NCBI RefSeq assembly: GCF_000981785.2
Contig: NZ_CP011304.1
Location: forward strand, 3,660,001-3,692,000
Source of the DNA: Microcystis aeruginosa NIES-2549
GTDB taxonomy: Bacteria; Cyanobacteriota; Cyanobacteriia; Cyanobacteriales; Microcystaceae
DNA length: 32,000 nt
Reading direction: 5' to 3'
Shown here piece after piece: positions 5,958-31,468 of the stretch (its first letter is position 1; every line of letters starts with the position of its first letter). The translations under genes were made by a program, and so were the position numbers. Below the pieces are notes generated by a model that worked only from the letters and a program-made list of their open reading frames with translations, searched no databases and had not been told where the DNA came from.

Positions 5958-6851
5958 CTAATTAATATCGATTTGTTTTTTGGCTGTCCAACAAAGGGCG
6001 ATTCCTTTTTCTTTATAGGAAGATTCTCCGACAAAGATAGGATATAATGTAGATTCCCCACGATAGATAATTTCCTGACCATCAAATCCTAGAAAAATCG
6101 GTTGATTGGGTTGAATTGCCTGATAATCTCGTTGGAGAATCTGAGGATGTAACATGGCTTTAATTTCACCCTGTTCATCCCTAGGATAATCGATCGAGCC
6201 TAAACGTTGGTAAACTGTTAGGGATTCGCCGAAAGTATCGAGATGGGCAGCGAGATAATTTTCCTGTTCGATATAGTCTAGGATTTGATAGATGAGTGTT
6301 TCGGTTTGACGAAAAAGATAGGGACAGATGACACCATGGTTAATTGGACCGATTTCTAGGGTAAAAGCTAGGGGACAAATTCCTTTCAGAAAATGATTTT
6401 CTTCCTCGCTGACGGGATGATAAATTAAGCGCACATCAGGATTAATTTTAGTCAGATAGGTAAAGAGTTTTAATAGCCAAGGATGGGGGTTAGAATAAAT
6501 AATCGCCAGCATCATGTTAGATGTGGTGCTGTGAATATCAATTAATAAATCAATGGATTTTTCTTGGATTTCTTTGACTATTTTTTTGGCTCGTTTTTGT
6601 TCGTATTGCTGACAATCGGGATTAACTAAATCTTTTTGGTTAAAACAACGATTTAAATCCGTATCGACATATCTAACCCGTTGCTTTAGGGCTAAGGGAT
6701 TAGCGATGAGACTGTGGGATTGAAAACTGCTGCGGGCTAGGAGATTAGCTGAGTTTTGCAGGTATTTAACCAGATAAGCGGGAGTTAGTTCATTGCCATG
6801 CACACCGGCAATTAAAGCCAGATTTTTAATAGTAGTTTTCTGCTCGATCAT
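5958..6851 (-). CDS. Aspartoacylase / succinylglutamate desuccinylase family zinc hydrolase
   Basis: The motifs GVHGNELTP, DLNRCF and IDIHSTTSNM match the AstE/AspA family zinc and catalytic signature. Confidence 0.8.
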   Translation of the reverse strand: MIEQKTTIKNLALIAGVHGNELTPAYLVKYLQNSANLLARSSFQSHSLIANPLALKQRVRYVDTDLNRCFNQKDLVNPDCQQYEQKRAKKIVKEIQEKSIDLLIDIHSTTSNMMLAIIYSNPHPWLLKLFTYLTKINPDVRLIYHPVSEEENHFLKGICPLAFTLEIGPINHGVICPYLFRQTETLIYQILDYIEQENYLAAHLDTFGESLTVYQRLGSIDYPRDEQGEIKAMLHPQILQRDYQAIQPNQPIFLGFDGQEIIYRGESTLYPIFVGESSYKEKGIALCWTAKKQIDIN

Positions 6852-7142: not shown

Positions 7143-8129
7143 TTAGAAAAACCAGCCGTAGGAATGAAGACCTTTACCTAAAAGATTCACCCCTAAATAA
7201 CATACCCAAACCACAACAAAACCACTCGCCGCTAGAATAGCCGGTTTTCTTCCTTGCCATCCCCGGGTAATGCGGGCATGGAGATAAGCGGCAAAAACTA
7301 ACCAAGTAATTAGCGCCCAAGTTTCTTTCGGGTCCCAACTCCAATAGGAACCCCAAGCTTCATTGGCCCAAACCGCCCCGGCGATGATACCGATAGTGAG
7401 AAGGGGAAAACCGAGGCCAATGACCCGATAACTGATATTATCGAGGGTTTCCGCCAAGCTAAGACGTTGGGGCGAAAGAGTTGCCATCGCTGTTAAGGTG
7501 GGAGTTAAAAGGGCGGTTGGTCCACCGTTAGCCGTTTCCAGGAAAATTGGCGCGGAAAGAGTGGTAGATAACTTATTTTGGAGACGATAGGCTCCCGTAC
7601 CCACGGAACTGCCTTTTAACTCGATATTTTGACCTCTCGTGACGATCAGAAAAGCGATCGCCATTAGGGAACCCACCATCAAAGCAGCATAACTTAACAT
7701 CATGACGCTAACGTGCATCATCAGCCAATTCGATTTTAAAGCCGGAACCAAGGGTGCCGAAGTTTGCATTTCTCCGGGTAAAGACAAAGTGGCAAAAGCG
7801 GTAATCCCCATGGCCACAGGAGTCGTCACCACTCCCACCAGGCGACTGCGGCTAGTGTACTCAGCAATTAAATGAACCGCAGTTACACCCCAAGCGAGAA
7901 AGAATAAAGATTCGTAAAGATTGCTAATGGGGAAATAACCCGCTTCTAACCAGCGCGCTCCCAATAAAGCGGCGATACAGAGGTTAGCGATGGCCACGCC
8001 CGTGCTGCCCAGGCCCGGCAACAAAGGTATGCTAGGAAAGGCTGCCCCGGCCCAATAAACCAGCATGGTTAAAAACAGGACTAAAAAAGAAGTGTTATCG
8101 AGAAAGTTCTCTAAGCTAACTAAATTCAT
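7143..8129 (-). CDS. ccsA: Cytochrome c biogenesis protein CcsA (system II heme handling)
   Basis: Polytopic membrane protein with the Trp-rich WWD motif [18 protein letters not shown]. Confidence 0.9.
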
Positions 8130-8314: not shown

Positions 8315-10279
8315 ATGGCTAATCAAGAAGATAATAAATTTTCCTGGTCCCGTTTGCCTCGGTTAGGCAAAATCCTGATCATTTGTTCTGGTGTTGCCGC
8401 TTTAGGCTATTTTCTTATCCCTCGTTCCTCAGAATTGTCCAATATTCCCCTCGAACCCTACAGCGAATTTATCAGTAAAGTGGAACGGGGCGACATCAGT
8501 AGGGTCAGAATTGGCAATCAAGTCATCTATTATCAATTAAAAAATCCTTTAGAATCCCTGGCTATTCCGGGTAATCCCCCCGTTAATCCCCCAGAATCAA
8601 GTAATCCCCTTTACGGTGATTCTAGTTCTTTGGCGGGGAAACCAAGCAGTCATCTAGTCCCAGAACGAGTCTTGGCCACGATTCCAGTCTATAACCCCCA
8701 ATTACCCCAACTCTTACAGCAAAAAGGCGTAATCTTCGAGGCGATTCCCCTGGCCGAAAACAGTTGGATCAGCACTCTCCTCGCTTGGGTGGTTCCTCCC
8801 TTAATTTTAGTCGCCGCCATGCAGTTTCTGTTCTATCGCAACGATGACACGCGTAAATCGCTGCTTTTTAATAAAAATCTCGCTAAAGTTTACGGAGACG
8901 ACGAAAAATATCCGATTACCTTCAGTGATGTGGCCGGGGCCGAGGAAGCAAAAACCGAGTTAAAGGAAATTGTCGAATTTCTCAAGGATGCCGAGCGCTT
9001 TAATAAAATTGGGGCGCGTATTCCTAAAGGTGTTCTCTTAGTCGGACCGCCGGGGACAGGGAAAACTCTCTTAGCAAAAGCGGTCGCGGGAGAAGCGGGA
9101 GTGACTTTTTTTAGCATTTCGGCCTCGGAATTCGTGGAGTTATTTGTCGGGACCGGGGCAGCCCGGGTGCGGGATCTATTTGCCCAAGCGAAGAAAAATG
9201 CCCCTAGCATCATTTTTATTGATGAATTGGACGCGATTGGTAAATCGAGAAGTTCGGGATCGGGAACTAGCGGCAGTAATGATGAGCGCGAGCAGACTTT
9301 AAACCAACTTTTGACAGAAATGGATGGTTTTAGCCCCAAAGAGGCCGTAGTCATCGTTTTAGCCGCCACCAATCGCCCAGAGACTCTTGATGCCGCTTTA
9401 TTACGTCCGGGGCGCTTTGATCGCCAAGTTCTGGTGGATCGTCCCGATTTGGCGGGACGATGGGCAATTTTGCAAATATACGCTCAACGAGTCCAGATGG
9501 GCGAAGATGTTAACCTCAAAGCGATCGCCACCCAAACCCCCGGTTTTGCCGGTGCCGATTTAGCCAACCTCGTCAATGAGGCGGCTCTCTTGGCCGCGCG
9601 TAATAATCGGGAAAAAGTCAGTCAAATTGATTTTAAAGAAGCGATAGAAAGAGTTATCGCCGGTTTAGAAAAGAAAAGTCGGGTTTTATCGGAAAAAGAA
9701 AAGAAAATCGTCGCTTATCACGAGGTCGGCCATGCTTTAGTCGGTGCTGTCATGCCGGGGGGGGGTTGCGTCGAGAAAATTTCTATCGTTCCCCGGGGTT
9801 TATCCGCTTTGGGTTATACCCTGAAAATTCCCACGGAAGACCGTTTTTTGATGACAGAAACCGAATTTAAAGAACAAATTACTATGTTATTGGGCGGTCG
9901 GGCTGCTGAAGAATTAATCTTTGGCAGTGTCACTAATGGCGCTTCCGATGATTTACAAAGGGCGACGGATATCGCTGAAAGAATGGTGACAATTTATGGT
10001 ATGAGTAAATCCCTGGGACCCCTGGCCTACGATAAAACAGGACAGGCGAATTTTTTAGGTAATAATCAGGTTAGTCCCCGCCGTTTGATCGGAGAAAATA
10101 CGGCTAAAGCGATCGATGAAGAAGTGAAACAAATTATCGACGCTAGTTACCAAAAAGCCCTAGCAATTCTCAGTCACAACCGCAATTTATTAGAGTCGAT
10201 TACCACTAATCTTTTGACCACGGAAGTAATCGAAGGAGAAGAATTGCAAGAATTCTTAAATCAAGCGCAAATGGTCTGA
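8315..10279 (+). CDS. ftsH: ATP-dependent zinc metalloprotease FtsH
   Basis: Two N-terminal TM helices, Walker A GPPGTGKT, Walker B IIFIDELD, second region of homology ATNRPETLDAALLRPGRFD, and Zn motif HEVGHA. A Pro-rich insert sits in the lumenal loop. Confidence 0.95.
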   Translation: MANQEDNKFSWSRLPRLGKILIICSGVAALGYFLIPRSSELSNIPLEPYSEFISKVERGDISRVRIGNQVIYYQLKNPLESLAIPGNPPVNPPESSNPLYGDSSSLAGKPSSHLVPERVLATIPVYNPQLPQLLQQKGVIFEAIPLAENSWISTLLAWVVPPLILVAAMQFLFYRNDDTRKSLLFNKNLAKVYGDDEKYPITFSDVAGAEEAKTELKEIVEFLKDAERFNKIGARIPKGVLLVGPPGTGKTLLAKAVAGEAGVTFFSISASEFVELFVGTGAARVRDLFAQAKKNAPSIIFIDELDAIGKSRSSGSGTSGSNDEREQTLNQLLTEMDGFSPKEAVVIVLAATNRPETLDAALLRPGRFDRQVLVDRPDLAGRWAILQIYAQRVQMGEDVNLKAIATQTPGFAGADLANLVNEAALLAARNNREKVSQIDFKEAIERVIAGLEKKSRVLSEKEKKIVAYHEVGHALVGAVMPGGGCVEKISIVPRGLSALGYTLKIPTEDRFLMTETEFKEQITMLLGGRAAEELIFGSVTNGASDDLQRATDIAERMVTIYGMSKSLGPLAYDKTGQANFLGNNQVSPRRLIGENTAKAIDEEVKQIIDASYQKALAILSHNRNLLESITTNLLTTEVIEGEELQEFLNQAQMV

Positions 10280-10469: not shown

Positions 10470-12386
10470 TTAAGGAGAAGACAGAATCAAAGCATTGGAA
10501 AACTGATATTTCCCTGCTTTGACAGTTAATTTGCCCTTTTTCCATGGCAAAGAAACGGGAGAGTTATCTCGACTTAAACTGTTATAAAGGGCGAAATTTT
10601 TTGACCAATCGTGCTTTTGACCGTTACGAATTAAAATCGGCAGTAGATTGATTTGATTATAGGTAAATTGTAAACTCTCTCCCTGACTGCCTTTAAATAA
10701 GAGGCTGCCTTGGTTAATTTGAGTTAAATTTACTTGACTTTTTTGCTTAAATATGCTCTTGAAATTCTCATAACTGCCCTGGGTTGCCGCTTCCCCCACT
10801 TCCAGGGCAAAACCCGCATAATCGTTACCTGTGGGTAAAGCTTGGTAGGTATTATCATCGGGATAAGGGGAATTAGGAATCTCGATAATTTCAGGATAAG
10901 AAAGATTTATTAATCTCAGGGCTAACCAAGTTTTTTCTAATTGAATAAACCAGATATTATCATCTTTTTCTACCTTGGCCGTTTTCGGTAATTGCCAGAA
11001 AAAAGCTTGATCTGCCGGTCGTAACCAGATTAAAAGATTGCGATATTGTCCGATTTCATCCCCGGGATTTTTGCCCGGTTTTACGCCATTTTTGCCGGTG
11101 TTAGCCACAAAAAAATCCACCCCTTTGTGTTGATTAAAGGCCATTAATTTAAACGGGGCCACATCGCCATCGGGGAAAGTTCCCGCCAGACTACCCATTT
11201 GATAACTAGCCCCGATAAATTGAGTTTCCCAATAACCCGGACTTTGATTATTGCCCGGTTTCCAGTTTTCATACAGGGGTTTACTGGCGAGAATTTCTAC
11301 GGGTTTATTAAAGTTTTTTCGAGCTAATTCCATCACTGCTAAAGGAGGACGATAACGACTGGTAATTAGATAAAGAGAGTCTAATTCCGGGCGATTATTA
11401 GCGACGGGGGTATCACCAAAGTATAACCAAAAAGTGCGGGCAGAATCCGATCGCATTACCCCATTACTACCACCATAATCGCGTTTTACAGGGCCACCCC
11501 AACCACCGCGATAATATTTAACACTAGCGGCCATGGATAACCAATCTAAGGCCATTTTTGCCCATTGTTTAACTTCCGTATCTTGAGCAAAATCGTAGAG
11601 ATTGAGATAGGGAGCAAAGGTATGACCGTGATAAACTTCTGAATCCCATTCTCCCATCCCGATGTTATATAAAGCTGAAACGTAACGCTTGATTTTACTT
11701 TTATAAATTTGACGAGTTGCTTCATTTCCTGTTTCTTCGGCCATCAGATAAACTGATGTTTCGCGCATCGCTCGCAGGTTATCAGTATTGCGACTATCTA
11801 CCCATAAACCCCGTCTTTTCATACTCCAATCATTACCCGTTCCTTGGCCAGTGCCATGGATAGGGTGAGGCCGTTGTAAAGGGTCGGTTTCTGTCCAAAT
11901 TTTCGCCGCATTATACATTCTCTGACGATAAACTGGATCGAGATACTTTCCGAGAAGAAAATATTTTCTAATTTGTCCTTTCAGGGTAAAAGAAAAATAA
12001 TAATCTATATAATCAGTGTGGGCTTGTTCTTGTGTTTGTGGGTCATCCTGTTGCAGGAAATCTAGGGCTTTTTGCTGGTTTCCTGCCAAGAAATCAAACA
12101 TGGCCAGATGATAGGATCTTTTCTCGTTTTCTCCCCACAAATTGCCATAACTTTCTGCCTGAGCAAAATGGTTAATAACTTCCTTGGCCCTTTGTTGAAA
12201 TGCCGTCTCTAATTCCGGTGTCCAATCGTTAAGATATTGGGCTTGAACTTCGGCAACAGGGAAGGAAGCGATCGAGTTTTGAGAAACAGAATAGAGGGAA
12301 TTAAAGCCAATAGTAAATAGGGCAATTATTCCCAATAAAATTAGATATTTAATTCTAGATCCAATCGTCATCTTCGGCAAATTCAT
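10470..12386 (-). CDS. Conserved-looking secreted or membrane-anchored protein of unknown function (638 aa)
   Basis: Long uninterrupted ORF with an N-terminal hydrophobic anchor (IKYLILLGIIALFTIGF). It is W/Y/G-rich and I recognise no catalytic motif. An alpha/alpha-toroid plus beta-sandwich (polysaccharide-lyase-like) fold is only a guess. The start may be M6 (12371). Confidence 0.6.
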   Translation of the reverse strand: MNLPKMTIGSRIKYLILLGIIALFTIGFNSLYSVSQNSIASFPVAEVQAQYLNDWTPELETAFQQRAKEVINHFAQAESYGNLWGENEKRSYHLAMFDFLAGNQQKALDFLQQDDPQTQEQAHTDYIDYYFSFTLKGQIRKYFLLGKYLDPVYRQRMYNAAKIWTETDPLQRPHPIHGTGQGTGNDWSMKRRGLWVDSRNTDNLRAMRETSVYLMAEETGNEATRQIYKSKIKRYVSALYNIGMGEWDSEVYHGHTFAPYLNLYDFAQDTEVKQWAKMALDWLSMAASVKYYRGGWGGPVKRDYGGSNGVMRSDSARTFWLYFGDTPVANNRPELDSLYLITSRYRPPLAVMELARKNFNKPVEILASKPLYENWKPGNNQSPGYWETQFIGASYQMGSLAGTFPDGDVAPFKLMAFNQHKGVDFFVANTGKNGVKPGKNPGDEIGQYRNLLIWLRPADQAFFWQLPKTAKVEKDDNIWFIQLEKTWLALRLINLSYPEIIEIPNSPYPDDNTYQALPTGNDYAGFALEVGEAATQGSYENFKSIFKQKSQVNLTQINQGSLLFKGSQGESLQFTYNQINLLPILIRNGQKHDWSKNFALYNSLSRDNSPVSLPWKKGKLTVKAGKYQFSNALILSSP

Positions 12387-18389: not shown

Positions 18390-19185
18390 AATATCCGTAG
18401 GGATCCACAGGAGTGGGTATAGGTTTCACGGATTTAGCCTTAATTACTAATTGTCTTCTGGTGGTTGATTTTCCCACCTCTACGGGTAAGGATTCCGTGG
18501 TCATTTCTCCGGTGATTTCTAACCAAGTATCATTGGGATATTGACTGCGACTTCCTGATAGTTTCACAGGCAAACCCACGGGATAAGCATCCACGGCACA
18601 ACAGGTAAGAATAAAGCGACTAATTAATAAATAATTATCGGGCAATTGGGGCAATTGTACCACAAAACCTGTGACTTTTACCGGTTGTCCCGTGTAGGCA
18701 TCAGGTTCGGGGTAAGCATTCAAAGTTCTTACCCATTCAATTAAACTTTTTTCCTCCGGTTTAACGGTAGTGCCAAAGGATTGAGTTTGCAAGCGAGTTA
18801 GGGGTAAAGACTCACTAATTCCCCTCTGTAATGCGATTTGACTGCTGAGGGGCTGCGGGGCGATAAATAGTCCTAAAATGGCAGTGATTACTAATAAACT
18901 TGAGCCAAAATGTTGGGGAAGAATGGTAATATGTGATCGCTGATCGTTACTATCTAAATTAGTCTTTTTTTGCCACTGCTTTAATAATGTCCAAAGCTTG
19001 ACTATTCCCAGGACAAATAAAGCAATACTGGTGAAGATAACCAGAATAAAATAATTAGGATGGATCAGTAAATTTAACTGTCCAGTTATCCAGTATTTAA
19101 ATAGTAATGAACCCCAACCGATTAGGGCAATAATATCGATAAATTGGGTGGCGATTATTTTTAGACGTGATGAATTCATGGGCAA
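18388..19185 (-). CDS. TIGR03943/DUF1980 family membrane protein, partner of the upstream permease
   Basis: N-terminal TM helices and a C-terminal domain with a TCCAVDA motif. It lies 18 nt downstream of the permease gene. Confidence 0.7.
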   Translation of the reverse strand: MPMNSSRLKIIATQFIDIIALIGWGSLLFKYWITGQLNLLIHPNYFILVIFTSIALFVLGIVKLWTLLKQWQKKTNLDSNDQRSHITILPQHFGSSLLVITAILGLFIAPQPLSSQIALQRGISESLPLTRLQTQSFGTTVKPEEKSLIEWVRTLNAYPEPDAYTGQPVKVTGFVVQLPQLPDNYLLISRFILTCCAVDAYPVGLPVKLSGSRSQYPNDTWLEITGEMTTESLPVEVGKSTTRRQLVIKAKSVKPIPTPVDPYGY

Positions 19186-19203
19186 AAATATCCAGGGACT
19201 GAA

Positions 19204-20214
19204 CTAAAATAAATAACTGTGAGCCAAGGTGAGTAAAAAAGTCATTTGCGCTGCTAAAGCAAAGAGATAAATTAACATTCTCGGTTTAAAAATAGACAAC
19301 ATTAAACCAATACCTTTCAGGTCAATCATTGGACCGAACACTAGAAAAGCCAGCAGGGAACTACTGGTAAAACTAGAGGCAAAGGAGAGAGCAAAAAAAG
19401 AATCAACCGTGGAACAAATCGAAACAATGACAGCTAACAGCATCATGGCCAAGATCGAAGTAATCGGATCCTGACCCAAATTAAGCACAAATTCCCGGGG
19501 AACAAACACCTGTAAACCGGCCGCTATAGCACTTCCTAAGATTAACACTCCTCCTAATTCGCGTAATTCCATCACCACGTTTTCCAGAAAAGTTAACCAG
19601 CGCCTTTTCATCGGGATTGCTTGCACTGCCGGTAGGACAGCAGTAGCGGCAAAACTTTCGTCTAAGCGCAAAGTTTGCCCAGAATTACCGATCAGAAAAG
19701 AACCGGATTGTAGTAGTAGTGGGATAGATTCTTTTTCCGGTGTTTCCGGTTGCCAATTGAGACTTTTTGCCAAAGAGGTTTGGAGGAGTGGTCGGGGATC
19801 TTTTTGGATACTAAAGATAATGCCGATAACCGTAGCGATGAACAAGGAAAAGATAACTCGATAGAAAACAATTTCCGGTTGATCGCGAAAAGCTACCCAA
19901 GTAGACCAGATAACAATCGGGTTAATTGTTGGCGCTGCTAAGAGAAAACTAACCGCTACTGCATTCGGCATTCCTTGCACAAGTAAACGTCGCGCCACGG
20001 GTACATTGCCACACTCGCACACGGGGAACAAAAACCCAATACATCCTCCCACAAATGCTCCTAAAATAGCATTGCGAGGCATCAACGCAACTAGGCGACG
20101 TTCATCGACAAATATTAAAAGAATACTAGAGAGAATCACCCCTAGCAGCAAGAAAGGCATCGCTTCCACCAACAGGCTCAGGAATAGGGTAAAGGCATTT
20201 TGTAGTTGACTCAT
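19204..20214 (-). CDS. Predicted permease (COG0701 / ArsP-like family)
   Basis: Polytopic membrane protein with a PVCECGNVPVARRL motif. Confidence 0.8.
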   Translation of the reverse strand: MSQLQNAFTLFLSLLVEAMPFLLLGVILSSILLIFVDERRLVALMPRNAILGAFVGGCIGFLFPVCECGNVPVARRLLVQGMPNAVAVSFLLAAPTINPIVIWSTWVAFRDQPEIVFYRVIFSLFIATVIGIIFSIQKDPRPLLQTSLAKSLNWQPETPEKESIPLLLQSGSFLIGNSGQTLRLDESFAATAVLPAVQAIPMKRRWLTFLENVVMELRELGGVLILGSAIAAGLQVFVPREFVLNLGQDPITSILAMMLLAVIVSICSTVDSFFALSFASSFTSSSLLAFLVFGPMIDLKGIGLMLSIFKPRMLIYLFALAAQMTFLLTLAHSYLF

Positions 20215-20333
20215 CTATCCTCGCCTTGGGAATTGGGGGTTTAGGGGTAAAGACTTAGGAACCCTAGAAAAAGGTTCATCAGTCCGCTCCCCGGCTTTTT
20301 AACATTTTTTTAATATATCTGATCGAGTGACCA

Positions 20334-20362
20334 ATTATCAGTTATCAGTGACCAGTTATCAG
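20334..20362 (+). repeat. Interrupted (TTATCAG) heptamer array
   Basis: Read directly as ttatcagttatcagtgaccagttatcag. It is followed by a degenerate CTCCCCA-type run at 20416-20444. Confidence 0.85.
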
Positions 20363-20535
20363 GGGACAGGAGACGGGAGCCAGTATTCAGGAGTCGGGAG
20401 ATTATTTTTATTTATTCTCCCTTCTCCCCACTCCCCCCACTCTGACAGGTGTAGGTATTTTACAACTAAGAGGAAGGGGAGTAGTAAAAAGCATCAACGG
20501 GGGTGGGAGGGAAAGAACTCCAACGGTGAAGGTGA

Positions 20536-20666
20536 ATCGACAAACCTTTTAGTAAATCAGCAATTAGGGTAATAGAAATCATCGAAGCTAACAATGATGC
20601 AACTCTCGAAGAATTATCGGACTTACTGTATGAAAAGACACAGGTGAAAGTCAGTAGAGCCAAATA
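20536..20666 (+). pseudogene. Short IS630-family transposase N-terminal (HTH) fragment
   Basis: One frame reads KSAIRVIEIIEANNDATLEELSDLLYEKTQVKVSRAK*. This resembles the xxPDATLxELxxxLxxxxGVxVS segment of IS630 transposases. It has no start codon and ends at the 55-bp repeat. Confidence 0.3.
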
Positions 20667-20717
20667 AGCACTTCAGGATTCCATAAGCAAAAATTATCAC
20701 ACAAAGTCGAGAAGAGC
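20663..20717 (+). repeat. 55-bp perfect inverted repeat, left copy
   Basis: aataagcacttcaggattccataagcaaaaattatcacacaaagtcgagaagagc is the exact reverse complement of 24362-24416. The match extends to 59 nt with 1 mismatch (20659-20717 / 24362-24420). Confidence 0.95.
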
Positions 20718-20798
20718 CCCAATAAGCAATGCAATCCTTGCTATCAAAGTAATTTCAGTTCCGGGCTGATTCGGAGCATCTTTCAATTTGACAACGCC
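20718..20798. mobile_element. Arm A of a split ~250-bp MITE-like element
   Basis: The terminal sequence, reverse-complemented, is ggcgttgtcaaattgaaagatgc. It pairs with the arm B terminus gacgttgtca...gaaagatgc (9/10 terminal and 9/9 subterminal matches). It is followed by ctaattct (20799-20806), the reverse complement of the AGAATTAG that follows arm B. Confidence 0.55.
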
Positions 20799-21021
20799 CT
20801 AATTCTTCCCACCGTAGAGCATAGCCATTTACTTCAACCTTAACCGCCGCCAATTGCTCATTCGTTGCTTGTTTCAAAATACGGAAGCGATCGCCAGGAA
20901 CCCCGATAATACGTCCATCACTGAGTTCAACGTATATCATGCGCTCTTCTGCCCAGGCTCGAATGGCAGCAGGCTCAATGGTCATCATGGGATTAACGGT
21001 TGTGGAAATCACGATAAGCAC
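20755..21021 (-). pseudogene. DUF2442-domain gene, 5' three-quarters fused to a foreign 19-codon tail
   Basis: IRAWAEERMIYVELSDGRIIGVPGDRFRILKQATNEQLAAVKVEVNGYALRWEEL matches the DUF2442 pattern up to nt 20799. The tail GRCQIERCSESARN* is read from the MITE arm. The matching 3' end lies at 24530-24595. Confidence 0.7.
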
Positions 21022-21062
21022 TCCTTATTCTAATTATAGTTATTTCAAATAAGAACGAGACA

Positions 21063-21933
21063 CTAGGCGACACAATAAGTACGAATAATTTCATCAAGGG
21101 GTGTCCCCACAGGAGCATACATTCTTGCCCTCTTTAATGCAATAAAATCATGTTCGATATCATTTAAATCAGGAGAGTATTTTGGCAAAAACACTACCTG
21201 ATCACCTGCTTCCTCTACCAGGCGTTCGGCGAACTCAGCCGAGCCGTTGTTTAATGACTGTCTTCCGATGAATTGGTGCATTATCCATAATTAATACTGA
21301 TGTTCTGGGCGCGAGAGGGCAATAAATATAAAGATAACCACCCTTCAAAACCTTCGGCATTCAGGCTTATCGTAAATACCATCGGTGCAATAAAGTCTTT
21401 TTTTCCCTTTCTTCTCCCAGCGACAAGGTTCTCTCTTTTTCCTCGTTTTCCTTGTCTATCTCCCAATACTTTCTTCCCTTTTTGTGCATCGGGCATAAAA
21501 GCAGGCTTGAAATTCTTCAAATCCTGACTCATCAATAAACACAAGGCTTTCACTTCCATATATTTTAATCAATTCTCTCAGCACTCTGTAGTATTTCATT
21601 CTTTCTTCTCGGTTTCTTTCTCTATAACGAAGTTCCTTCTTTTTTCTGGTAACTTTCATTTTTTTTAAGGCATAGCAAATGGCACTTGGTCTCACTCCAA
21701 ACTTCTCGGCTCTGTCTCTTAATCTTGCCTCGGGATTTTCTTGGACATCTTTTGACAGTGCTTTCCAGTCCAGCTTTCTCTGACGGTGTTTTACCTTTGT
21801 TGCTTCCAGTTTTTCCCTACTTAGCCATCTATATATTGTGGCTCTTCCTATATTAAATATAGCGGCGGCTTTGGTTATGCTTCCTCCATACATAATCAAT
21901 TACTTTTTTTCTCAAGTCTAGGCTATAGGACAT
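21063..21933 (-). pseudogene. IS630-family transposase, decayed, with at least 4 frame changes
   Basis: Homology runs through several frames. These are MSYSLDLRKKVIDYV (ATG at 21933), GGSITKAAAIFNIGRATIYRWL...FIDESGF (21899-21456), PAFMPDAQKGKKVLG...FEGWLSLYLLPS (21559-21281), LIMDNAPIHRKTV in a further frame near 21290, and FLPKYSPDLNDIEHDF (21281-21063). Confidence 0.8.
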
Positions 21934-21995
21934 TTTTCTGTATGGGTTGCTTGTTTCTCCTTATTTTACCCTATTTTTTACTTGTATCATAGTTA

Positions 21996-23246
21996 CTAAT
22001 TCTGTACGCAAATATTGCATCTAGAATTAGCTTTGTACGCTTTGACCCGTACTGGGTTAACTACGAACCTCTCTATCGGATTCCCGCTAAAGGCGGCCTC
22101 TCCGACTACCTTTCTTCCAATATTTAAGGAACCATTAATATCTGCTCCATAGAAATAACCCGACGAGCTTCTGAATAGTCCTCTTTTAATTCTCTTGCCT
22201 AAATAGCTTTTTTGCTTTTGAATAGACTCTAAGTCCAAGAAACTACATTTAGAGGTATAGCTTTCATTAGTTGTTTTGACCTCTATTCCTACTAAATTTG
22301 CTTTATAGGTAAGTTGTTCGATAAACCTTGAATGAGGAATATTTACGAATGACTGGTTATTTCTATCTCCAATATTAATGTTTTGTTTCCAGCCTTGATT
22401 ATGACCAATAACTAAAAGGTTAATTTGATGAGCTAGTAATTTATCAATAATATATTTACTAGCGGTGTGGAGGTAATAATCCACCTGGCAATTACGCTTT
22501 AAAGTTAAACCTTGTATTCTTTTACTGGTCTTCTGGAGACTGGGTAATTCCGATTTGAGTTTAGCTAGTGTCTTGTTGTACTTTTGATTGCAGGATTTTA
22601 AGGCTTTTCCACATACTAAAGTTGGCTGAAATTCGGGAATATTAGAGGTAACAGCAGCTAGGTTATTTAAGCCTAAATCGATAAAAGCATATCTTTCTCC
22701 CTCTTGACTTGATGAGGATGGTTGTTCATAGACAATCTCTAAACAATAAGCACCCAATTTAGGAATAATCCTGACCTCTAAGACTTCCTTTAAATTAGTT
22801 TTAAATTCTAAATTAGTCCCTGATAGCTTGATTAAACCTTGCTTCAACGCTTTTTTAGAAATGGCTTGATAGTTATAAGTTAAAACGTTTCTACCTTTTT
22901 CCTTGTCTTTGTATCTTGGCAACTTAGGCTCTCCTGTAAATTTATCTGGCGATTTTTTGTATTGTTCTTTCGCTTTTTGGTAGGATTTAAAGGTTTTTTC
23001 TACTTGCTTTAATACTAACTGACTTACTTTGGCGGGTAAGGCTTGATAATCTGGACTCATTTTTAAGGCATGATGTAACTCAGTCATTGTTAAAAATGGT
23101 TGATGTGAAAAGAAAACTTGACGGTTTAAATAAACAGCACAATTATACAGATTCTTCGATAAAAATCCTAATTTATCAATTACTGAATAATTTTTGTGAT
23201 TAAATTTAATTAGATGTTTTTGAACTAATTTCATCATTCTCCTCAA
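21996..23246 (-). CDS. tnpB: TnpB (OrfB) RNA-guided endonuclease-type protein of the IS200/IS605-IS607 group
   Basis: The RuvC triad appears intact: AFIDLGLNNLAAV (D), NESYTSKCS (E) and YGADINGSLNIGRK (D). I saw no CxxC zinc ribbon. The start may be M4/M5 (23237/23234). Confidence 0.88.
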   Translation of the reverse strand: MRRMMKLVQKHLIKFNHKNYSVIDKLGFLSKNLYNCAVYLNRQVFFSHQPFLTMTELHHALKMSPDYQALPAKVSQLVLKQVEKTFKSYQKAKEQYKKSPDKFTGEPKLPRYKDKEKGRNVLTYNYQAISKKALKQGLIKLSGTNLEFKTNLKEVLEVRIIPKLGAYCLEIVYEQPSSSSQEGERYAFIDLGLNNLAAVTSNIPEFQPTLVCGKALKSCNQKYNKTLAKLKSELPSLQKTSKRIQGLTLKRNCQVDYYLHTASKYIIDKLLAHQINLLVIGHNQGWKQNINIGDRNNQSFVNIPHSRFIEQLTYKANLVGIEVKTTNESYTSKCSFLDLESIQKQKSYLGKRIKRGLFRSSSGYFYGADINGSLNIGRKVVGEAAFSGNPIERFVVNPVRVKAYKANSRCNICVQN

Positions 23247-23832
23247 GGCATTTAATTAAACATTCTGTCTTTCTATTTCGTCGTCTTAATGAGTATAATC
23301 GAGCGCAAAATGAGGTAATTATGCTCACGAAGTCTTGCCTTAAATCGTCTTTTCTTTCTTCTGCTAGATTAACGACCTCTATATCTCTATTTGTTTGAGT
23401 TAAAAGAACTTTCAGATAATTAAACCCTACTCTGCTTAAACGATCTTTATGTTCTACGACAATCAAATTATAATCAGTTTGTTCTAGAAGTTTTAATAAT
23501 AGCTTTCGATGATCATTGACTCCACTTCCTACTTCTTTAACTACTCGAACAATTTGATAGCCTTTCGCAATACAATAAGCTTCCAATCTTTTTGCCTGAG
23601 TCTCTAAGTTAGATTGATTTTCTGAACTAGAAACTCGCGCATAAATAGCTACTTTATTTTCACCGCAAGAACGGTCATCTTCAAAAATAATAATTGTTCC
23701 TGTAGGAAGACGTTCTCCTTGTAACTGCCCTCGATTCCACATTCTCCAAGCAGTGTCATAACTGCTCCCTTTTTTCTTAGCATAATCTGATAGTTTTATA
23801 TGAACTGCAATGTAAACTTGTACTAACCACAT
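23206..23832 (-). CDS. tnpA: IS607-family serine recombinase TnpA (MerR-like HTH plus resolvase catalytic domain)
   Basis: The N-terminal segment KLSDYAKKKGSSYDTAWRMWNRGQL is HTH-like. VAIYARVSSSENQSNLETQ carries the catalytic Ser. The resolvase core is VVEHKDRLSRVGFNYL. Confidence 0.85.
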   Translation of the reverse strand: MWLVQVYIAVHIKLSDYAKKKGSSYDTAWRMWNRGQLQGERLPTGTIIIFEDDRSCGENKVAIYARVSSSENQSNLETQAKRLEAYCIAKGYQIVRVVKEVGSGVNDHRKLLLKLLEQTDYNLIVVEHKDRLSRVGFNYLKVLLTQTNRDIEVVNLAEERKDDLRQDFVSIITSFCARLYSLRRRNRKTECLIKCLEENDEISSKTSN

Positions 23833-24122
23833 TAGCAGTTGTTTGCAGTTATTTGCATATATTTTTTATAAAACTTTACAATACTTATTTTAAATGACTA
23901 TACCGTTGGCATTCAGTCAAATTCGTAATCATTGAGAGTAGCTAGTTCTTTATTCTAGTCGGAAATTGTGGCGATCATTGTCGCACCCCAATCAGACCGA
24001 TAAAGACCTTCAGCAATAAACCGATAGATACTGAAAAACAGCCAATCCTGCTGTTTTAAACACAACCCATACCGCATAGGATTATTATGAATATAATTGA
24101 AAGTTGTAACAGTCGTTCAGTT

Positions 24123-24362
24123 ATGGAATACCGATGGGATGAAGCAAAACGACTTACTAATCTTCGTAAACACGGTATAGATTTTGCCGATGTTCCCGCC
24201 GTTTTCGATGGGGACATTATAACGGTTGAAGATGATCGTCTCGATTATGGAGAGCAGCGTTTTGTGACATTGGGTTTACTAAAAGGGCGAATTATTGCCG
24301 TTGTCCATACTGAACGTGAGGATTACACTCGTATTATTTCTGCAAGAAAGGCAACGAAATAG
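24123..24362 (+). CDS. brnT: BrnT (DUF497) family toxin, C-terminally shortened, with no antitoxin gene
   Basis: MEYRWDEAKRLTNLRKHGIDFADV...RIISARKATK*. The stop codon (24360-24362) touches the first base of the 55-bp repeat. Family members that I recall continue ~8-12 aa further and are followed by brnA. Confidence 0.78.
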   Translation: MEYRWDEAKRLTNLRKHGIDFADVPAVFDGDIITVEDDRLDYGEQRFVTLGLLKGRIIAVVHTEREDYTRIISARKATK

Positions 24363-24416
24363 CTCTTCTCGACTTTGTGTGATAATTTTTGCTTATGGAA
24401 TCCTGAAGTGCTTATT
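24362..24416 (-). repeat. 55-bp perfect inverted repeat, right copy
   Basis: Exact reverse complement of 20663-20717, checked base by base. Confidence 0.95.
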
Positions 24417-24528
24417 GGGCAAGACTTTTAGGACTATTTTGCGGATATTCTATCAGTATAGACCTCGTTTCCACACAGAAACCAGAAGAGCCTGCATTGC
24501 ATCTTTCCTATTCTGATCTGACAACGTC
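24417..24528. mobile_element. Arm B of the split MITE-like element
   Basis: It ends gcatctttcctattctgatctgacaacgtc (24499-24528), immediately followed by AGAATTAG (24529-24536). Confidence 0.55.
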
Positions 24529-24529
24529 A

Positions 24530-24595
24530 GAATTAGATGAGGATATTACCGTTCCTGGGATTATCGCTGGTCATTTTCAGTTACCACCTTGCTAA
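24530..24595 (+). pseudogene. DUF2442 3' fragment (ELDEDITVPGIIAGHFQLPPC*)
   Basis: It is in the same codon phase across the shared gaattag as the 5' part on the minus strand. Joining them gives ...GYALRWEELDEDITVPGIIAG..., the usual DUF2442 C-terminus. Confidence 0.6.
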
Positions 24596-24957
24596 TGTGT
24601 TTTGATAGTTCAAGCAATTGTAGGATGGGTTTGCGTAGGCGATCGCGGTTTTAAAGTTTAATTAACAAGAAGACAGCGATCGCACTGGATAAAAGGGTTT
24701 CTAATGCGATCGCCAAAGGTTTAAGGATGCCAGGGATTGATGTTACAATGTCTCCAGAGGAAGGACTGATTGGGGTACGATAAAGCTCGCCACAATTCCC
24801 GACAGTATTGGCAATGAATGATGTAGGATATGTTAGCGTAGCGTATCGCAATATTGATTAAAGTCTTTTAAAGAAGGTAAAAGCTGCATGGGATGCACCC
24901 TACGCAATCGGTGATCGCACCCCAAAGATTGGCAGTTCCTTAGTATTTATAGGCTTA

Positions 24958-26568
24958 TTACCCAGAGTGATTATCATCCCATAATCGAACAAAAATCCCA
25001 AACAAAAAAACAATAACGGCCGATCCCAAAAAATATATCAAGAAATTAGAAACATCTAGATTAGTAGATCGAGTAAACTCATTCTTAATTGAATCAGGTA
25101 ATTGCCAAGAGATAAACAAGCCTAATATCCAAGAAATAAACAATCCAGCTAAAAGCCATATCAAATAACGAATATATGTATATAACTTTGCCACACTTTC
25201 GTTAGGCCATCCCCAAAAATTTTTTTCTGGGGGTTGTTTAAAGTTATCTCCTTCTAGCAACCAATATGCTACCTGCTTGACCAAGGGATTTTTTCGATTA
25301 GAATTATAAGTCAAATATTCAATATGACTCAATAAATGAATTAATTCAGCTTTATAAGCTATTTCGATTGGCTTTTTCCCACCGTAGTTTACTAAATCAA
25401 AATACTTAGTTTTACCTGCTACAGGATCAGTTGGATCGTAAATATTAATCCACTCAAAGTCAGCAGAAAAAATCGAGTTATCTTTATTGATAGGAACGAT
25501 AGCTGGCCAAACTACTCCAAACTTACTTAAAGGAGATCCATAGGTCATAAACCCTTTGAGATTTTCAAATAAATACTTACGAGAAATAATATCATCCAAA
25601 TCTAGCCAAGCCGGGCGACTTGGAAACATATTGTCAGCTTGTTTTTGTGTAAGAAAATTTGTACCTTTTGTTGCAATGCCAGACTTTTTGCATCTTTCCC
25701 ATAGATTTTCGTTGAGATAATTTGGTAAAACTGCATCGGGTTCCATCAAACCATTGAAAGCAACAACGGTTCCCAAGCTATGAGACAAAACATACCATCT
25801 ATCGTAATTGGCTAGTCTCATTTTTACTAGCCCTTTGATCATGCGTCTGCGAACCGAAATCCGTAGTGGTTGACCAATATCTATTAAATATCCTGCTCCG
25901 TCTGGTTCCCGTTTTTGTTCCTGATAATTCTTAATATCACCCAGATACTGAACTAAAACATCAGGACGAAGATCAAATGCCAAAATTTTGCGAAGAACAA
26001 AGCTTAACAAAGAGAGCAAGGGCTGAATCAAAAGCACAACCCAAGAAACTACAAAAAAGCTATAACGACCAAATAATGGTATATTCGGTGTTTTATCTGT
26101 TGAAACAGTTGTTGGCAAGTGTACTTGATTGAGAGTGCCGAAGTCGTCCTCAAAAAATCCCTGTTCTTTTTGTTTGTTTTTGTTCTTTTTTCCTAAATAT
26201 TGTTCTCTCGACCACAACGACAGCCCCCATCTCCAAAAAGAGAGTTGGGAAAAGAGACTATCCGCTTTACCGAGATCAGCCCACCAAGCTTCACTGAAGA
26301 TTAATTCTGTTACTTTAATGACTTTATTTTGATCATTAGGATCATGCTTTGTAACTTCAATAACAAGGGGTTCTTTGTCATTAGCTAACCAAGTTTGCTG
26401 ACTAGCTCTATATTCTGCATCGTCACTGTCATTGATAATCACCCGCACTTTGAGACATGGATCTGAAAGTAAGGCAGCAGCAATATTACTAGCAATTGCC
26501 TCTATATTTTCAAATTTCTTCGTTTCACCAATACCGTGAACGAGTAAAATGCCAACTTTAGTAATCAT
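24958..26568 (-). CDS. Membrane-anchored alpha/beta-hydrolase (lipase/esterase-like), 536 aa
   Basis: ILLVHGIGE (HG oxyanion motif), YVLSHSLGTVVAF (nucleophile elbow, SxSxG variant), candidate Asp in IYDPTDPVAG and candidate His in LLSHIEYL. A hydrophobic hairpin (FFVVSWVVLLIQPLLSLLSFVL) is inserted in the fold and there are two C-terminal TM helices. Confidence 0.6.
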   Translation of the reverse strand: MITKVGILLVHGIGETKKFENIEAIASNIAAALLSDPCLKVRVIINDSDDAEYRASQQTWLANDKEPLVIEVTKHDPNDQNKVIKVTELIFSEAWWADLGKADSLFSQLSFWRWGLSLWSREQYLGKKNKNKQKEQGFFEDDFGTLNQVHLPTTVSTDKTPNIPLFGRYSFFVVSWVVLLIQPLLSLLSFVLRKILAFDLRPDVLVQYLGDIKNYQEQKREPDGAGYLIDIGQPLRISVRRRMIKGLVKMRLANYDRWYVLSHSLGTVVAFNGLMEPDAVLPNYLNENLWERCKKSGIATKGTNFLTQKQADNMFPSRPAWLDLDDIISRKYLFENLKGFMTYGSPLSKFGVVWPAIVPINKDNSIFSADFEWINIYDPTDPVAGKTKYFDLVNYGGKKPIEIAYKAELIHLLSHIEYLTYNSNRKNPLVKQVAYWLLEGDNFKQPPEKNFWGWPNESVAKLYTYIRYLIWLLAGLFISWILGLFISWQLPDSIKNEFTRSTNLDVSNFLIYFLGSAVIVFLFGIFVRLWDDNHSG

Positions 26569-31140: not shown

Positions 31141-31468
31141 CTTACTTAGGGCTTGCTGAATAAATCTAAAAACCTTGTTGGGTAAGACTTTTAGGCTTTT
31201 TGTCAATCAAAAAGTACCAAATATGGGAGTGATCGGGGGAAAATTCAGGGACTTTTTCCCCGAAAATTAATTTGACCCTCTGAAAACGGGTAAAACCCTA
31301 CACCCTAGACCCGTTCGGACTTCGGACGTTCGGCGAGACTTCGGACGTTCGGCGAGACTTCGGCGTGAGCTTTTGTCGAACGCTCAGTCGAACGCTGAGC
31401 TCACGGCCGAAGCCTACACCCCACACCCTACCCCCACGAAAAACTTTTTGCCGCAAACCCTACTTAAG
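31141..31468. mobile_element. ~330-bp MITE-like composite element with imperfect 16-nt terminal inverted repeats
   Basis: The ends cttacttagggcttgc (31141-31156) and gcaaaccctacttaag (31453-31468) match in 13 of 16 positions as inverted repeats. The element contains tagggcttgctgaataaat (31147-31165), CCCTACA-type heptamers (31296-31312, 31413-31437), a 19-nt tandem repeat and the leader motif (31432-31460, minus orientation). Confidence 0.55.
31319..31370. repeat. 19-nt tandem repeat (acttcggacgttcggcgag) x2.7, followed by a dyad
   Basis: The units are at 31319-31337, 31338-31356 and, as a partial unit, 31357-31370. Then gtcgaacgctca/gtcgaacgctga are direct 12-mers, and ggcgtgagc...gctcacggcc form an imperfect inverted repeat. 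Confidence 0.85.

What the first reader, a model, noticed from the sequence alone, without database searches (positions are those of the whole stretch)
20718..24595. A DUF2442 gene and the MITE that disrupted it are each split into halves 3.7 kb apart on opposite strands, which reconstructs an insertion followed by an inversion
Seen in the sequence: the minus-strand DUF2442 ORF is family-like up to ...ALRWEEL (nt 20799) and then runs into unrelated sequence. On the plus strand, 24530-24595 encodes ELDEDITVPGIIAGHFQLPPC*, the expected continuation. Both share gaattag in the same codon phase. The octamer AGAATTAG occurs at both breakpoints (20799-20806 as its complement, 24529-24536). The sequences adjoining the two octamers are inverted copies of each other: ggcgttgtca-aatt-gaaagatgc versus gacgttgtca-N11-gaaagatgc. 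Inference: flipping 20718-24361 between the 55-bp repeats restores a ~248-bp element with 10-nt terminal inverted repeats (GRCGTTGTCA) and an 8-bp target-site duplication, inserted in an otherwise intact 93-aa DUF2442 gene. The order of events would be MITE insertion first, then inversion through a 55-bp segment shared with a second, inverted copy.
Basis: partly seen in the sequence, partly recalled or inferred. Interest (0 to 1): 0.65.

Follow-up and report, generated by a model that had tools for sequence, protein, structure and literature searches.

The report
Nested MITEs split by an inversion
In this Microcystis-type cyanobacterial genome a small gene (DUF2442) was hit by one tiny transposon, which was then hit by a second; a later flip of the DNA between two inverted copies of the second transposon separated the halves, which is a clean but ordinary example of how mobile repeats scramble these genomes.

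Summary

**Shown**
- Intact Microcystis loci (DUF4160-DUF2442) match window 21027-20799 (reverse) and 24529-24686 (forward). They overlap by exactly 8 bp (AGAATTAG), which is a true target-site duplication.
- The rejoined 93-aa protein is 92-96% identical to intact 90-aa orthologues.
- The inverted repeat is 59 nt (58/59 identical), not 55.

**Refinement**
- The "248-bp MITE" is two nested elements. A 101-bp MITE-A has GRCGTTGTCA ends and is abundant in Microcystis with 8-bp duplications.
- It carries a 131-bp MITE-B (GGCTCTTCTCGAC... ends, 8-bp duplication TGCATTGC, also abundant), plus 8 unexplained extra bases.
- The inversion arms are the first 59 nt of MITE-B.
- The second arm sits exactly where brnT is cut 12 codons short. 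So a second MITE-B end had joined brnT.

**Timing**
- Three close relatives (~99% identity) share the inversion.
- They lack the 1.9-kb IS607-like element, which is therefore later.

**Not resolved**
- No un-inverted allele was found.
- Homologous recombination versus one-step intramolecular transposition remains open.

This is ordinary for Microcystis, so interest is low.

The parts
20426..20658 (+). Outer flank of arm A: fragment resembling the 5' part of an IS630-type element, joined to arm A at an internal point.
   Evidence: Independent short-read contigs break at 20425/20426. The peptide from 20560-20660 is 51-59% identical to ORFs with a sub-threshold transposase-type HTH. Weak evidence.
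20659..20717 (-). Arm A: MITE-B positions 1-59 (1-55 certain), a solo left-end fragment.
   Evidence: 59-nt inverted repeat with 24362-24420, 58/59 identical. Aligns to the MITE-B copies in L001 and then diverges.
20718..20725 (-). Eight extra bases (TTATTGGG on the minus strand), identical to MITE-B positions 51-58 of this copy. Unexplained.
   Evidence: Absent from intact 101-bp MITE-A copies and from the flanks of 120 other MITE-B copies.
20726..20798 (-). MITE-A left part (73 nt), with terminal repeat GGCGTTGTCA at 20789-20798. One copy of the inner duplication TGCATTGC lies at 20726-20733.
   Evidence: 93-99% identical over positions 1-73 to many Microcystis copies.
20799..20806 (-). Target-site duplication, copy 1 (AGAATTAG on the minus strand).
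   Evidence: Both window alignments to the uninterrupted locus include L001 10207-10214.
20807..21021 (-). DUF2442 gene, N-terminal part (through ...ALRWE; the EL codons lie in the duplicated octamer).
   Evidence: Pfam PF10387, 40.4 bits. 94-95% nucleotide identity to L001-L008.
21035..21991 (-). IS630-like element, main part (frameshifted transposase ORFs 21063-21281 and 21456-21899). It replaces the body of DUF4160. A 7-nt DUF4160 remnant lies at 21028-21034.
   Evidence: Pfam HTH_Tnp_IS630 (1e-37) and DDE_3. Terminal repeats TATAGTYATTTMAAATAAG and TA flanks, read from sequence.
21992..23883 (-). IS607-like element (serine recombinase TnpA 23206-23832, TnpB 21996-23246). It inserted 19 bp from the end of the IS630-like element. 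Boundaries are good to about 3 nt.
   Evidence: Pfam Resolvase, OrfB_IS605 and Cas12f1-like_TNB. Absent from three ~99% identical relatives.
23884..23902 (-). Right terminal piece of the IS630-like element.
   Evidence: Contiguous with 21991 in the relatives.
23902..24013 (-). DUF4160 start codon with its first ~5 codons, plus the upstream region, in the same orientation as the DUF2442 N-part.
   Evidence: 95.5% identical to L001 9791-9680. DUF4160 confirmed in L001 by Pfam.
24087..24362 (+). brnT toxin gene, missing its last 12 codons. The stop codon is completed by the first base of MITE-B.
   Evidence: Pfam BrnT_toxin, 3e-28. Native proteins are 100-103 aa and end ...RKATKYEQQTYFEQLSN. DNA homology to L156 and L157 stops at 24361.
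24362..24492 (+). Complete MITE-B (131 nt). Arm B is its first 59 nt (24362-24420).
   Evidence: Full-length matches with 8-bp duplications in L001 and L157 and in 68 metagenome copies.
24493..24528 (+). MITE-A right part: second copy of TGCATTGC (24493-24500), then 28 nt ending in the terminal repeat TGACAACGTC.
   Evidence: 94-100% identical to many Microcystis copies. In intact copies it overlaps the left part by the 8 nt.
24529..24595 (+). Target-site duplication copy 2 (24529-24536) and the DUF2442 C-terminal part (ELDEDITVPGIIAGHFQLPPC*).
24596..24686 (+). Native downstream flank of DUF2442.
   Evidence: The alignment to L001 10207-10364 continues through it.

Best explanation
The window comes from a Microcystis-type cyanobacterium. 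A DUF4160-DUF2442 gene pair decayed there through a chain of mobile-element events. (1) A 101-bp MITE (here called MITE-A, ends GRCGTTGTCA) inserted into codon 72-74 of DUF2442 and duplicated AGAATTAG. (2) A 131-bp MITE of a different family (MITE-B, ends GGCTCTTCTCGACTTTGTGTG) inserted into MITE-A and duplicated TGCATTGC. (3) A second MITE-B end, in the opposite orientation, became joined to brnT at codon 92, about 1.8 kb away. Recombination between the two inverted MITE-B left ends, most likely RecA-type homologous recombination, then flipped the DNA between them. That put the DUF2442 N-part and half of MITE-A on the other strand. (4) The distal part of the left MITE-B copy, the 3' end of brnT and brnA were lost at a junction with an IS630-like fragment, which left a 59-nt solo arm. 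(5) In this strain only, an IS607-like element later inserted into the inverted segment. Steps 1, 2 and 5, and the fact of the inversion, are shown by comparison with other strains. The recombination mechanism, the former completeness of the second MITE-B copy, and the timing of step 4 are inferred.
For: Organism and intact gene: 90-aa orthologues at 92-96% identity cover both halves without a break. Empty site: L001-L008 align to 20799-21027 (reverse) and 24529-24686 (forward) with an 8-bp overlap. The DUF4160 start and upstream region lie inside the flipped segment in the same orientation as the N-part. MITE-A family: more than 120 stretches in the genome scan, about half of them in Microcystis species. 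Intact copies are 101-102 bp with a single TGCATTGC, and 14 copies have perfect 8-bp duplications. MITE-B family: more than 120 stretches in metagenomes, 68 of them full-length at a mean 91% identity, and 40 with duplications of at most 1 mismatch in 8. brnT homology ends at the very first base of MITE-B, which is what transposase-made joining would produce. Inverted arms are 58/59 identical. Three assemblies (BJCH, BJCK, BJCJ) and metagenome contigs that span each arm share the arrangement at ~99% identity and lack 21992-23883. Kaneko et al. 2008 (PMC2779907) report 11.8% IS plus MITE content in M. aeruginosa NIES-843 and propose repeat-mediated homologous recombination as the source of genome plasticity.
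Against: No un-inverted allele was found among 7 contigs carrying the truncated DUF2442, 4 contigs carrying this brnT, or a metagenome junction scan. Arm A is only 55-59 nt and abuts unrelated DNA, so a complete second MITE-B copy is assumed rather than seen. The arms differ at 1 of 59 positions while family members differ by about 9% on average. This fits sibling copies but fits a single duplicated copy equally well. The extra TTATTGGG between MITE-B position 1 and the TGCATTGC copy is not predicted by simple insertion plus recombination.
Confidence: 0.6

Rival explanations
1. One-step intramolecular (replicative or aberrant) transposition. The MITE-B already sitting in MITE-A attacked a target in brnT on the same chromosome. 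This copied itself in inverted orientation and flipped the intervening DNA, with no pre-existing second copy needed. The extra TTATTGGG would be a by-product of the same transposase reaction, for example use of the internal end-like sequence CCTGAAGTGC (MITE-B 41-50; 8 of 10 bases match the right end CCAGAAGAGC) with an 8-bp staggered cut next to it.
For: brnT is joined exactly to the terminal base of MITE-B. The arms are nearly identical although the family averages 91% identity. After un-flipping, MITE-B 1-50 is flanked by perfect 8-bp direct repeats TTATTGGG, the same length as this family's target duplication. The TTATTGGG variant is rare in the family, which points to a local origin.
Against: The diagnostic inverted copy of the brnT target next to the right end of the left copy cannot be checked, because that part is missing. 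Every transposition scheme I worked through still needs an extra deletion to give the observed left junction. The transposition chemistry of this family is unknown, and no autonomous element was found. No other MITE-B copy shows a 58|1 junction or a truncation at 50-59.
Confidence: 0.22
2. Inversion without homologous recombination or transposase. Staggered breaks with fill-in, or replication template switching, duplicated 59 nt in inverted orientation at the two breakpoints and added a short templated insertion.
For: Arm A is a solo 55-59-nt piece between unrelated sequences. GCC microhomology lies at the junction with the IS630-like fragment, and TGC microhomology at the junction with TGCATTGC. 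The extra 8 nt is a copy of nearby sequence.
Against: One breakpoint would have to fall by chance exactly at the terminal base of MITE-B, where it meets brnT. Also, brnT would have read straight into the antisense strand of the IS630-like fragment before the event, so a separate loss of its 3' end and of brnA is still needed.
Confidence: 0.1
3. Artefact or coincidence: the two DUF2442 pieces come from different paralogues, or the inversion is an assembly error across a repeat.
For: Inverted repeats are classic sites of misassembly, and Microcystis has many DUF2442 paralogues (3115 family hits).
Against: Both pieces match the same locus at the same identity (94.8% and 94.3%) with an exact 8-bp overlap and the native flanks. 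The repeat is only 59 nt, shorter than a sequencing read. Three independent genome assemblies show the same junctions, and separate metagenome contigs span each arm (L134 over arm A, L139 over arm B).
Confidence: 0.03

Closest known systems
MaeMITEa-h and the IS/MITE load of Microcystis aeruginosa NIES-843 (Kaneko et al. 2008, PMC2779907)
   Same: Small, non-coding, multi-copy elements with terminal inverted repeats in the same genus. That genome is 11.8% IS plus MITE, and the authors propose repeat-mediated homologous recombination as the cause of rearrangements.
   Different: The eight named families are listed at 176-429 bp (the text says copies of 150-435 bp). The two elements here are 101 and 131 bp, so they may be unnamed, or short relatives of named families. 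Sequences of the named families were not available for comparison.
ISL3-family insertion sequences and their MITE derivatives
   Same: MITE-B makes 8-bp target duplications (tested). Its ends begin GGCTCTTC, which I recall as typical of ISL3-family ends (from memory, not tested). ISL3 elements (ISMae36, ISMae37) are listed for Microcystis.
   Different: No transposase-bearing element with these ends was found in about 2 Mb of fetched Microcystis DNA. The link is therefore a lead, not a result.
Inversions between inverted IS or MITE copies by homologous recombination
   Same: The inverted segment is bounded by inverted copies of a mobile element, and each copy keeps one original flank.
   Different: Only 55-59 nt of homology remain, one arm is a truncated solo fragment, and one junction carries 8 extra bases.
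Inversion by intramolecular replicative transposition (as described for Tn3-, IS1- and IS26-type elements; general knowledge)
   Same: Two inverted element copies bracket an inverted segment, and one element end is joined precisely to new target DNA (brnT).
   Different: The expected full second copy and the inverted pair of brnT target duplications are not present, and the transposition chemistry of this family is unknown.
DUF4160-DUF2442 gene pairs and BrnT-BrnA toxin-antitoxin modules
   Same: Intact relatives carry DUF4160 overlapping DUF2442 by 20 nt and brnT overlapping brnA.
   Different: Here both modules are wrecks. DUF4160 is reduced to a stub, DUF2442 is split, brnT lacks 12 codons, and brnA is absent from the window.

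Membership tests
MITE (generic) | Small (under about 600 bp) and without coding capacity | tested here: met
   MITE-A is 101 bp and MITE-B is 131 bp. Neither contains an ORF of its own.
MITE (generic) | Terminal inverted repeats | tested here: met
   MITE-A has GGCGTTGTCA / GACGTTGTCA plus the subterminal GAAAGATGC. MITE-B has GCTCTTCTCGACTTTGTGTG / GCTCTTCTGGTTTCTGTGTG.
MITE (generic) | Target-site duplication, shown against an empty site | tested here: met
   An 8-bp overlap of the two alignments to the uninterrupted locus. For MITE-B in MITE-A, intact MITE-A copies have one TGCATTGC and the window has two.
MITE (generic) | Many dispersed copies in the genome or genus | tested here: met
For MITE-A, 14 perfect 8-bp duplications. 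For MITE-B, 40 duplications with at most 1 mismatch.
   No composite among the MITE-A loci: only 4 MITE-B hits, none inside a MITE-A. The junction 23-mer is absent from metagenomes. The junction occurs only in the window's own lineage.
ISL3-derived MITE (for MITE-B) | 8-bp target duplication | tested here: met
ISL3-derived MITE (for MITE-B) | Ends shared with an autonomous ISL3-family element that encodes the transposase | tested here: inconclusive
   Paired ends 0.7-3 kb apart enclosed only host-type ORFs.
Pfam DUF2442 (PF10387) | Score above the curated threshold (23.9 bits) | tested here: met
   40.4 bits for the fragment and 57.9 bits for the rejoined protein.
BrnT toxin (PF04365) of a BrnTA module | BrnT domain above threshold, with an adjacent brnA antitoxin gene | tested here: not met
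   The domain is met at 98.3 bits. However, the gene lacks 12 codons and no brnA or brnT 3' end exists in the window. An intact pair is seen in L157.
Recombination-mediated inversion between inverted repeats | Inverted homologous repeats exactly at both ends of the inverted segment | tested here: met
   Arms at 20659-20717 and 24362-24420. Colinearity with the reference locus is restored by flipping 20718-24361.
Recombination-mediated inversion between inverted repeats | Existence of the un-inverted parental arrangement with both repeat copies | tested here: inconclusive
   Not found. Whole Microcystis genomes could not be searched exhaustively.
Intramolecular replicative transposition inversion | Target duplication present as an inverted pair, one copy next to each element copy | not testable with these tools
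   The right-end side of the left copy is missing from the window and from all relatives.

The most novel reading that the evidence does not exclude
The inversion was not made by general recombination. It would be a direct product of the MITE-B transposase acting on one true end and an internal end-like sequence. The perfect 8-bp TTATTGGG repeats around MITE-B 1-50, and the precise join to brnT, would then be its footprint: a natural record of a MITE making an inversion by aberrant intramolecular transposition.
Probability: 0.15. Interest if true: 0.45.

Novelty: new member of a known kind. Interest (0 to 1): 0.25.

Why it matters
The locus is a well-resolved worked example of how MITEs and IS elements dismantle small toxin-antitoxin-type gene pairs and reorder Microcystis chromosomes. 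The relative order of four events can be read from the sequence and from close relatives. It also defines two short MITE families, 101 and 131 bp, both with 8-bp duplications. They are abundant in Microcystis and fall below the size range of the families named for NIES-843, which is useful for annotation and for strain typing. It does not reveal a new kind of system.

Tried and rejected
- **Un-inverted allele.** I looked up the exact truncated DUF2442 protein, the truncated BrnT, and the flanking ArsP-type and 536-aa proteins. Every informative contig shows the same inverted state, and short-read contigs break at the repeats.
- **Composite junction scan.** A metagenome scan for the junction TGCATTGCTTATTGGGGCTCTTC gave 0 hits.
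- **ORFs specific to the un-inverted state.** Two exist (45 and 53 aa), but they are not encoded in the window, so the look-up tool would not accept them.
- **Autonomous parent of MITE-B.** Paired ends 0.7-3 kb apart enclosed only host-type ORFs.
- **Other copies of the 58|1 junction, or of MITE-B nested in MITE-B.** None were found.
- **Missing brnT 3' end and brnA.** Absent from the window.
- **Rfam scan of 19000-26000.** No match.
- **Transposition schemes for the extra 8 nt.** I worked through several on paper. The one that yields the inverted TTATTGGG pair requires the target to be a MITE-B already lacking its first 50 nt. The others need an added 50-nt deletion, so none is adopted.
- **Different-paralogue and misassembly readings.** Rejected.

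Full report
**1. What is in the sequence**

The window has 40% G+C and frequent GCGATCGC sites. Its proteins match Microcystis best.

The described features are all present.
- A 59-nt inverted repeat lies at 20659-20717 and 24362-24420, with 58 of 59 bases identical and 3644 nt between the arms.
- A minus-strand ORF (20755-21021) matches Pfam DUF2442 only over profile positions 2-58 of 72, at 40.4 bits.
- A plus-strand piece (24529-24595) supplies the missing end. The rejoined 93-aa protein scores 57.9 bits over positions 2-69.
- Flipping 20718-24361 gives a 248-bp insert flanked by the octamer.

**2. Proof that this is one gene hit by an insertion**

- The rejoined protein finds intact 90-aa Microcystis proteins at 92-96% identity. 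The sequence RWEELDEDITV is invariant across the junction.
- Eight contigs carry the intact gene, including a complete Microcystis chromosome (CP155078.1, locus L001). They align to window 20799-21027 in reverse and to 24529-24686 forward.
- Both alignments include L001 10207-10214, so the 8 bp are single-copy in the empty site and duplicated here.
- Identity is the same for both pieces (94.8% and 94.3%), and the native downstream flank follows the C-part.
- In those contigs DUF4160 overlaps the start of DUF2442.
- In the window, the DUF4160 start and upstream region (23902-24013) lie inside the flipped segment, in the same orientation as the N-part. Un-flipping therefore restores the reference gene order.

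**3. The "248-bp MITE" is two nested MITEs**

*Outer element (MITE-A).*
- A scan of one genome per species for the end motif hit more than 120 stretches, about half of them in Microcystis species and one in Snowella. The rest are scattered single hits, as chance predicts.
- Intact copies are 101-102 bp. They equal the window's left 73 nt plus right 28 nt, with a single TGCATTGC.
- 75-bp and 200-426-bp variants also exist.
- Fourteen copies have perfect 8-bp duplications.

*Inner element (MITE-B, 24362-24492).*
- It has ~20-nt inverted ends and 8-bp duplications in L001 and L157.
That scan gave 68 full-length copies of 130-133 nt, with a mean identity of 91% to the window copy and a range of 75-99%. 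In 40 copies the 8-bp flanks differ by at most one base.

*Arithmetic.* 248 = 101 (MITE-A) + 131 (MITE-B) + 8 (TGCATTGC duplication) + 8 extra bases. No other copy of the composite was found.

**4. The inversion arms and the second copy**

- The arms are the first 59 nt of MITE-B.
- Arm B is part of the complete MITE-B, and its first base abuts brnT.
- Native BrnT proteins are 100-103 aa. One is 99% identical to the window's and continues ...RKATK-YEQQTYFEQLSN.
- DNA homology to two brnT loci stops at 24361, exactly where MITE-B starts. A MITE-B end was therefore joined to brnT at codon 92, which looks like a transposase product.
- The brnT 3' end and brnA are not in the window. An intact pair is seen in L157.
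- Arm A is a solo fragment. Beyond position 55-59 it meets unrelated DNA that looks like the 5' part of an IS630-type element. This rests on weak evidence: contig breaks at 20425 and 51-59% peptide matches to ORFs with a sub-threshold HTH.

**5. Order of events**

- Each half of MITE-A keeps one copy of each duplication. Both insertions therefore preceded the inversion.
- Three assemblies (BJCH01000028, BJCK01000028, BJCJ01000018) and several metagenome contigs are ~99% identical and collinear with the window, inversion included. They lack about 21992-23883, the IS607-like element with TnpA and TnpB. That insertion is therefore later and specific to this strain.
- Without that insertion the halves lie 1.8 kb apart.
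- The IS630-like element (21035-21991 plus 23884-23902) entered DUF4160 at a TA near codon 6. About 187 bp of the gene are deleted beside it. Its timing relative to the inversion cannot be set.

**6. Mechanism**

The most likely route is homologous recombination between two inverted MITE-B copies, one in MITE-A and one in brnT. This would be followed, or preceded, by loss of the distal part of the brnT copy. Kaneko et al. proposed such repeat-mediated recombination for Microcystis (PMC2779907).

Three observations keep rivals alive.
- The arms differ at only 1 of 59 positions, although the family averages about 9% divergence.
- Arm A is truncated at a point where no other copy is truncated.
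- Eight extra bases, TTATTGGG, separate MITE-B position 1 from the TGCATTGC copy at the left junction.

The extra bases equal MITE-B 51-58 of this very copy, in a variant that is rare in the family. After un-flipping, MITE-B 1-50 is flanked by perfect 8-bp direct repeats. MITE-B 41-50 also resembles the true right end (8 of 10 bases).

This could be the trace of an aberrant transposase reaction or of a templated repair event. I could not derive the observed junctions from any single scheme without adding a deletion, so I leave it unexplained.

One-step intramolecular transposition and template switching are listed as rivals. Different paralogues and misassembly are excluded.

**7. Comparison with what is known, and verdict**

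- Both elements meet every generic MITE criterion.
- They are shorter than the MaeMITE families named for NIES-843.
- MITE-B has the 8-bp duplication of ISL3-type elements, and from memory their GGCTCTTC ends. No autonomous partner was found.
- No Rfam family matches the region.

The finding is a correct and neat reconstruction, but it is ordinary for a genus whose genomes are over 10% IS and MITE. It counts as a new member of a known kind. Interest is low, with a small chance that the 8-bp footprint records a transposase-made inversion.

Noticed in passing
window 21992-23883: A complete-looking IS607-type element (serine recombinase TnpA, 208 aa; TnpB, 416 aa) is nested 19 bp from the end of the IS630-like element. 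Three ~99% identical relatives lack it, so it is a recent, strain-specific insertion. Its size (~1.89 kb) is close to ISMae20 (1897 bp) in the NIES-843 table.
   Followed up: partly
window 21028-21034 and 23902-24013, compared with L001 9680-10020: The DUF4160 partner gene is reduced to its first ~5 codons and a 7-nt remnant. An IS630-like element sits at a TA near codon 6, and about 187 bp of the gene are deleted next to it.
   Followed up: yes
window 24087-24362: The brnT toxin gene lacks its last 12 codons, and there is no brnA antitoxin anywhere in the 32 kb. It is either an inactivated remnant or a toxin covered by an antitoxin elsewhere in the genome.
   Followed up: partly
window 23958-23998 / 24763-24803 and 24639-24714; L157 at about 6731-6806, 7419-7460, 9796-9869, 11968-12002: Short GCGATCGC-rich repeats of about 35-75 nt recur at the borders of toxin-antitoxin-type cassettes. 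Homology to different reference loci switches inside them: L001 versus L156 at 23978-24013, and L001 versus L157 at 24652-24686. They may be the places where such cassettes get shuffled.
   Followed up: no
metagenome loci L158-L277 (for example L168, L171, L182, L254, L260): About 40% of the internal MITE-B matches lack the right end. Alignment end-points cluster near positions 35, 80 and 106-117. Other MITE types share only the first ~25 nt (GGCTCTTCTCGACTTTGTGTGATAA) and then have a different interior. This suggests several MITE families served by one transposase.
   Followed up: partly
L065 7130-7515, L033 150-545, L111 6030-6352: Long MITE-A variants carry one to several copies of a ~24-nt unit (CTTGCCCTGAGCCAAGTCGAAGGG) and an internal second MITE-A left end. 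MITE-A itself therefore accumulates nested or tandem small repeats.
   Followed up: no
window 20598-20629, compared with L131/L138 (BJCJ01000018): One relative lacks these 32 bp inside the IS630-like fragment next to arm A, with about 4 nt of overlap at the junction.
   Followed up: no
window 31174-31202: A 29-nt stretch is 87% identical to MITE-B positions 50-80. It may be a degraded further copy.
   Followed up: no
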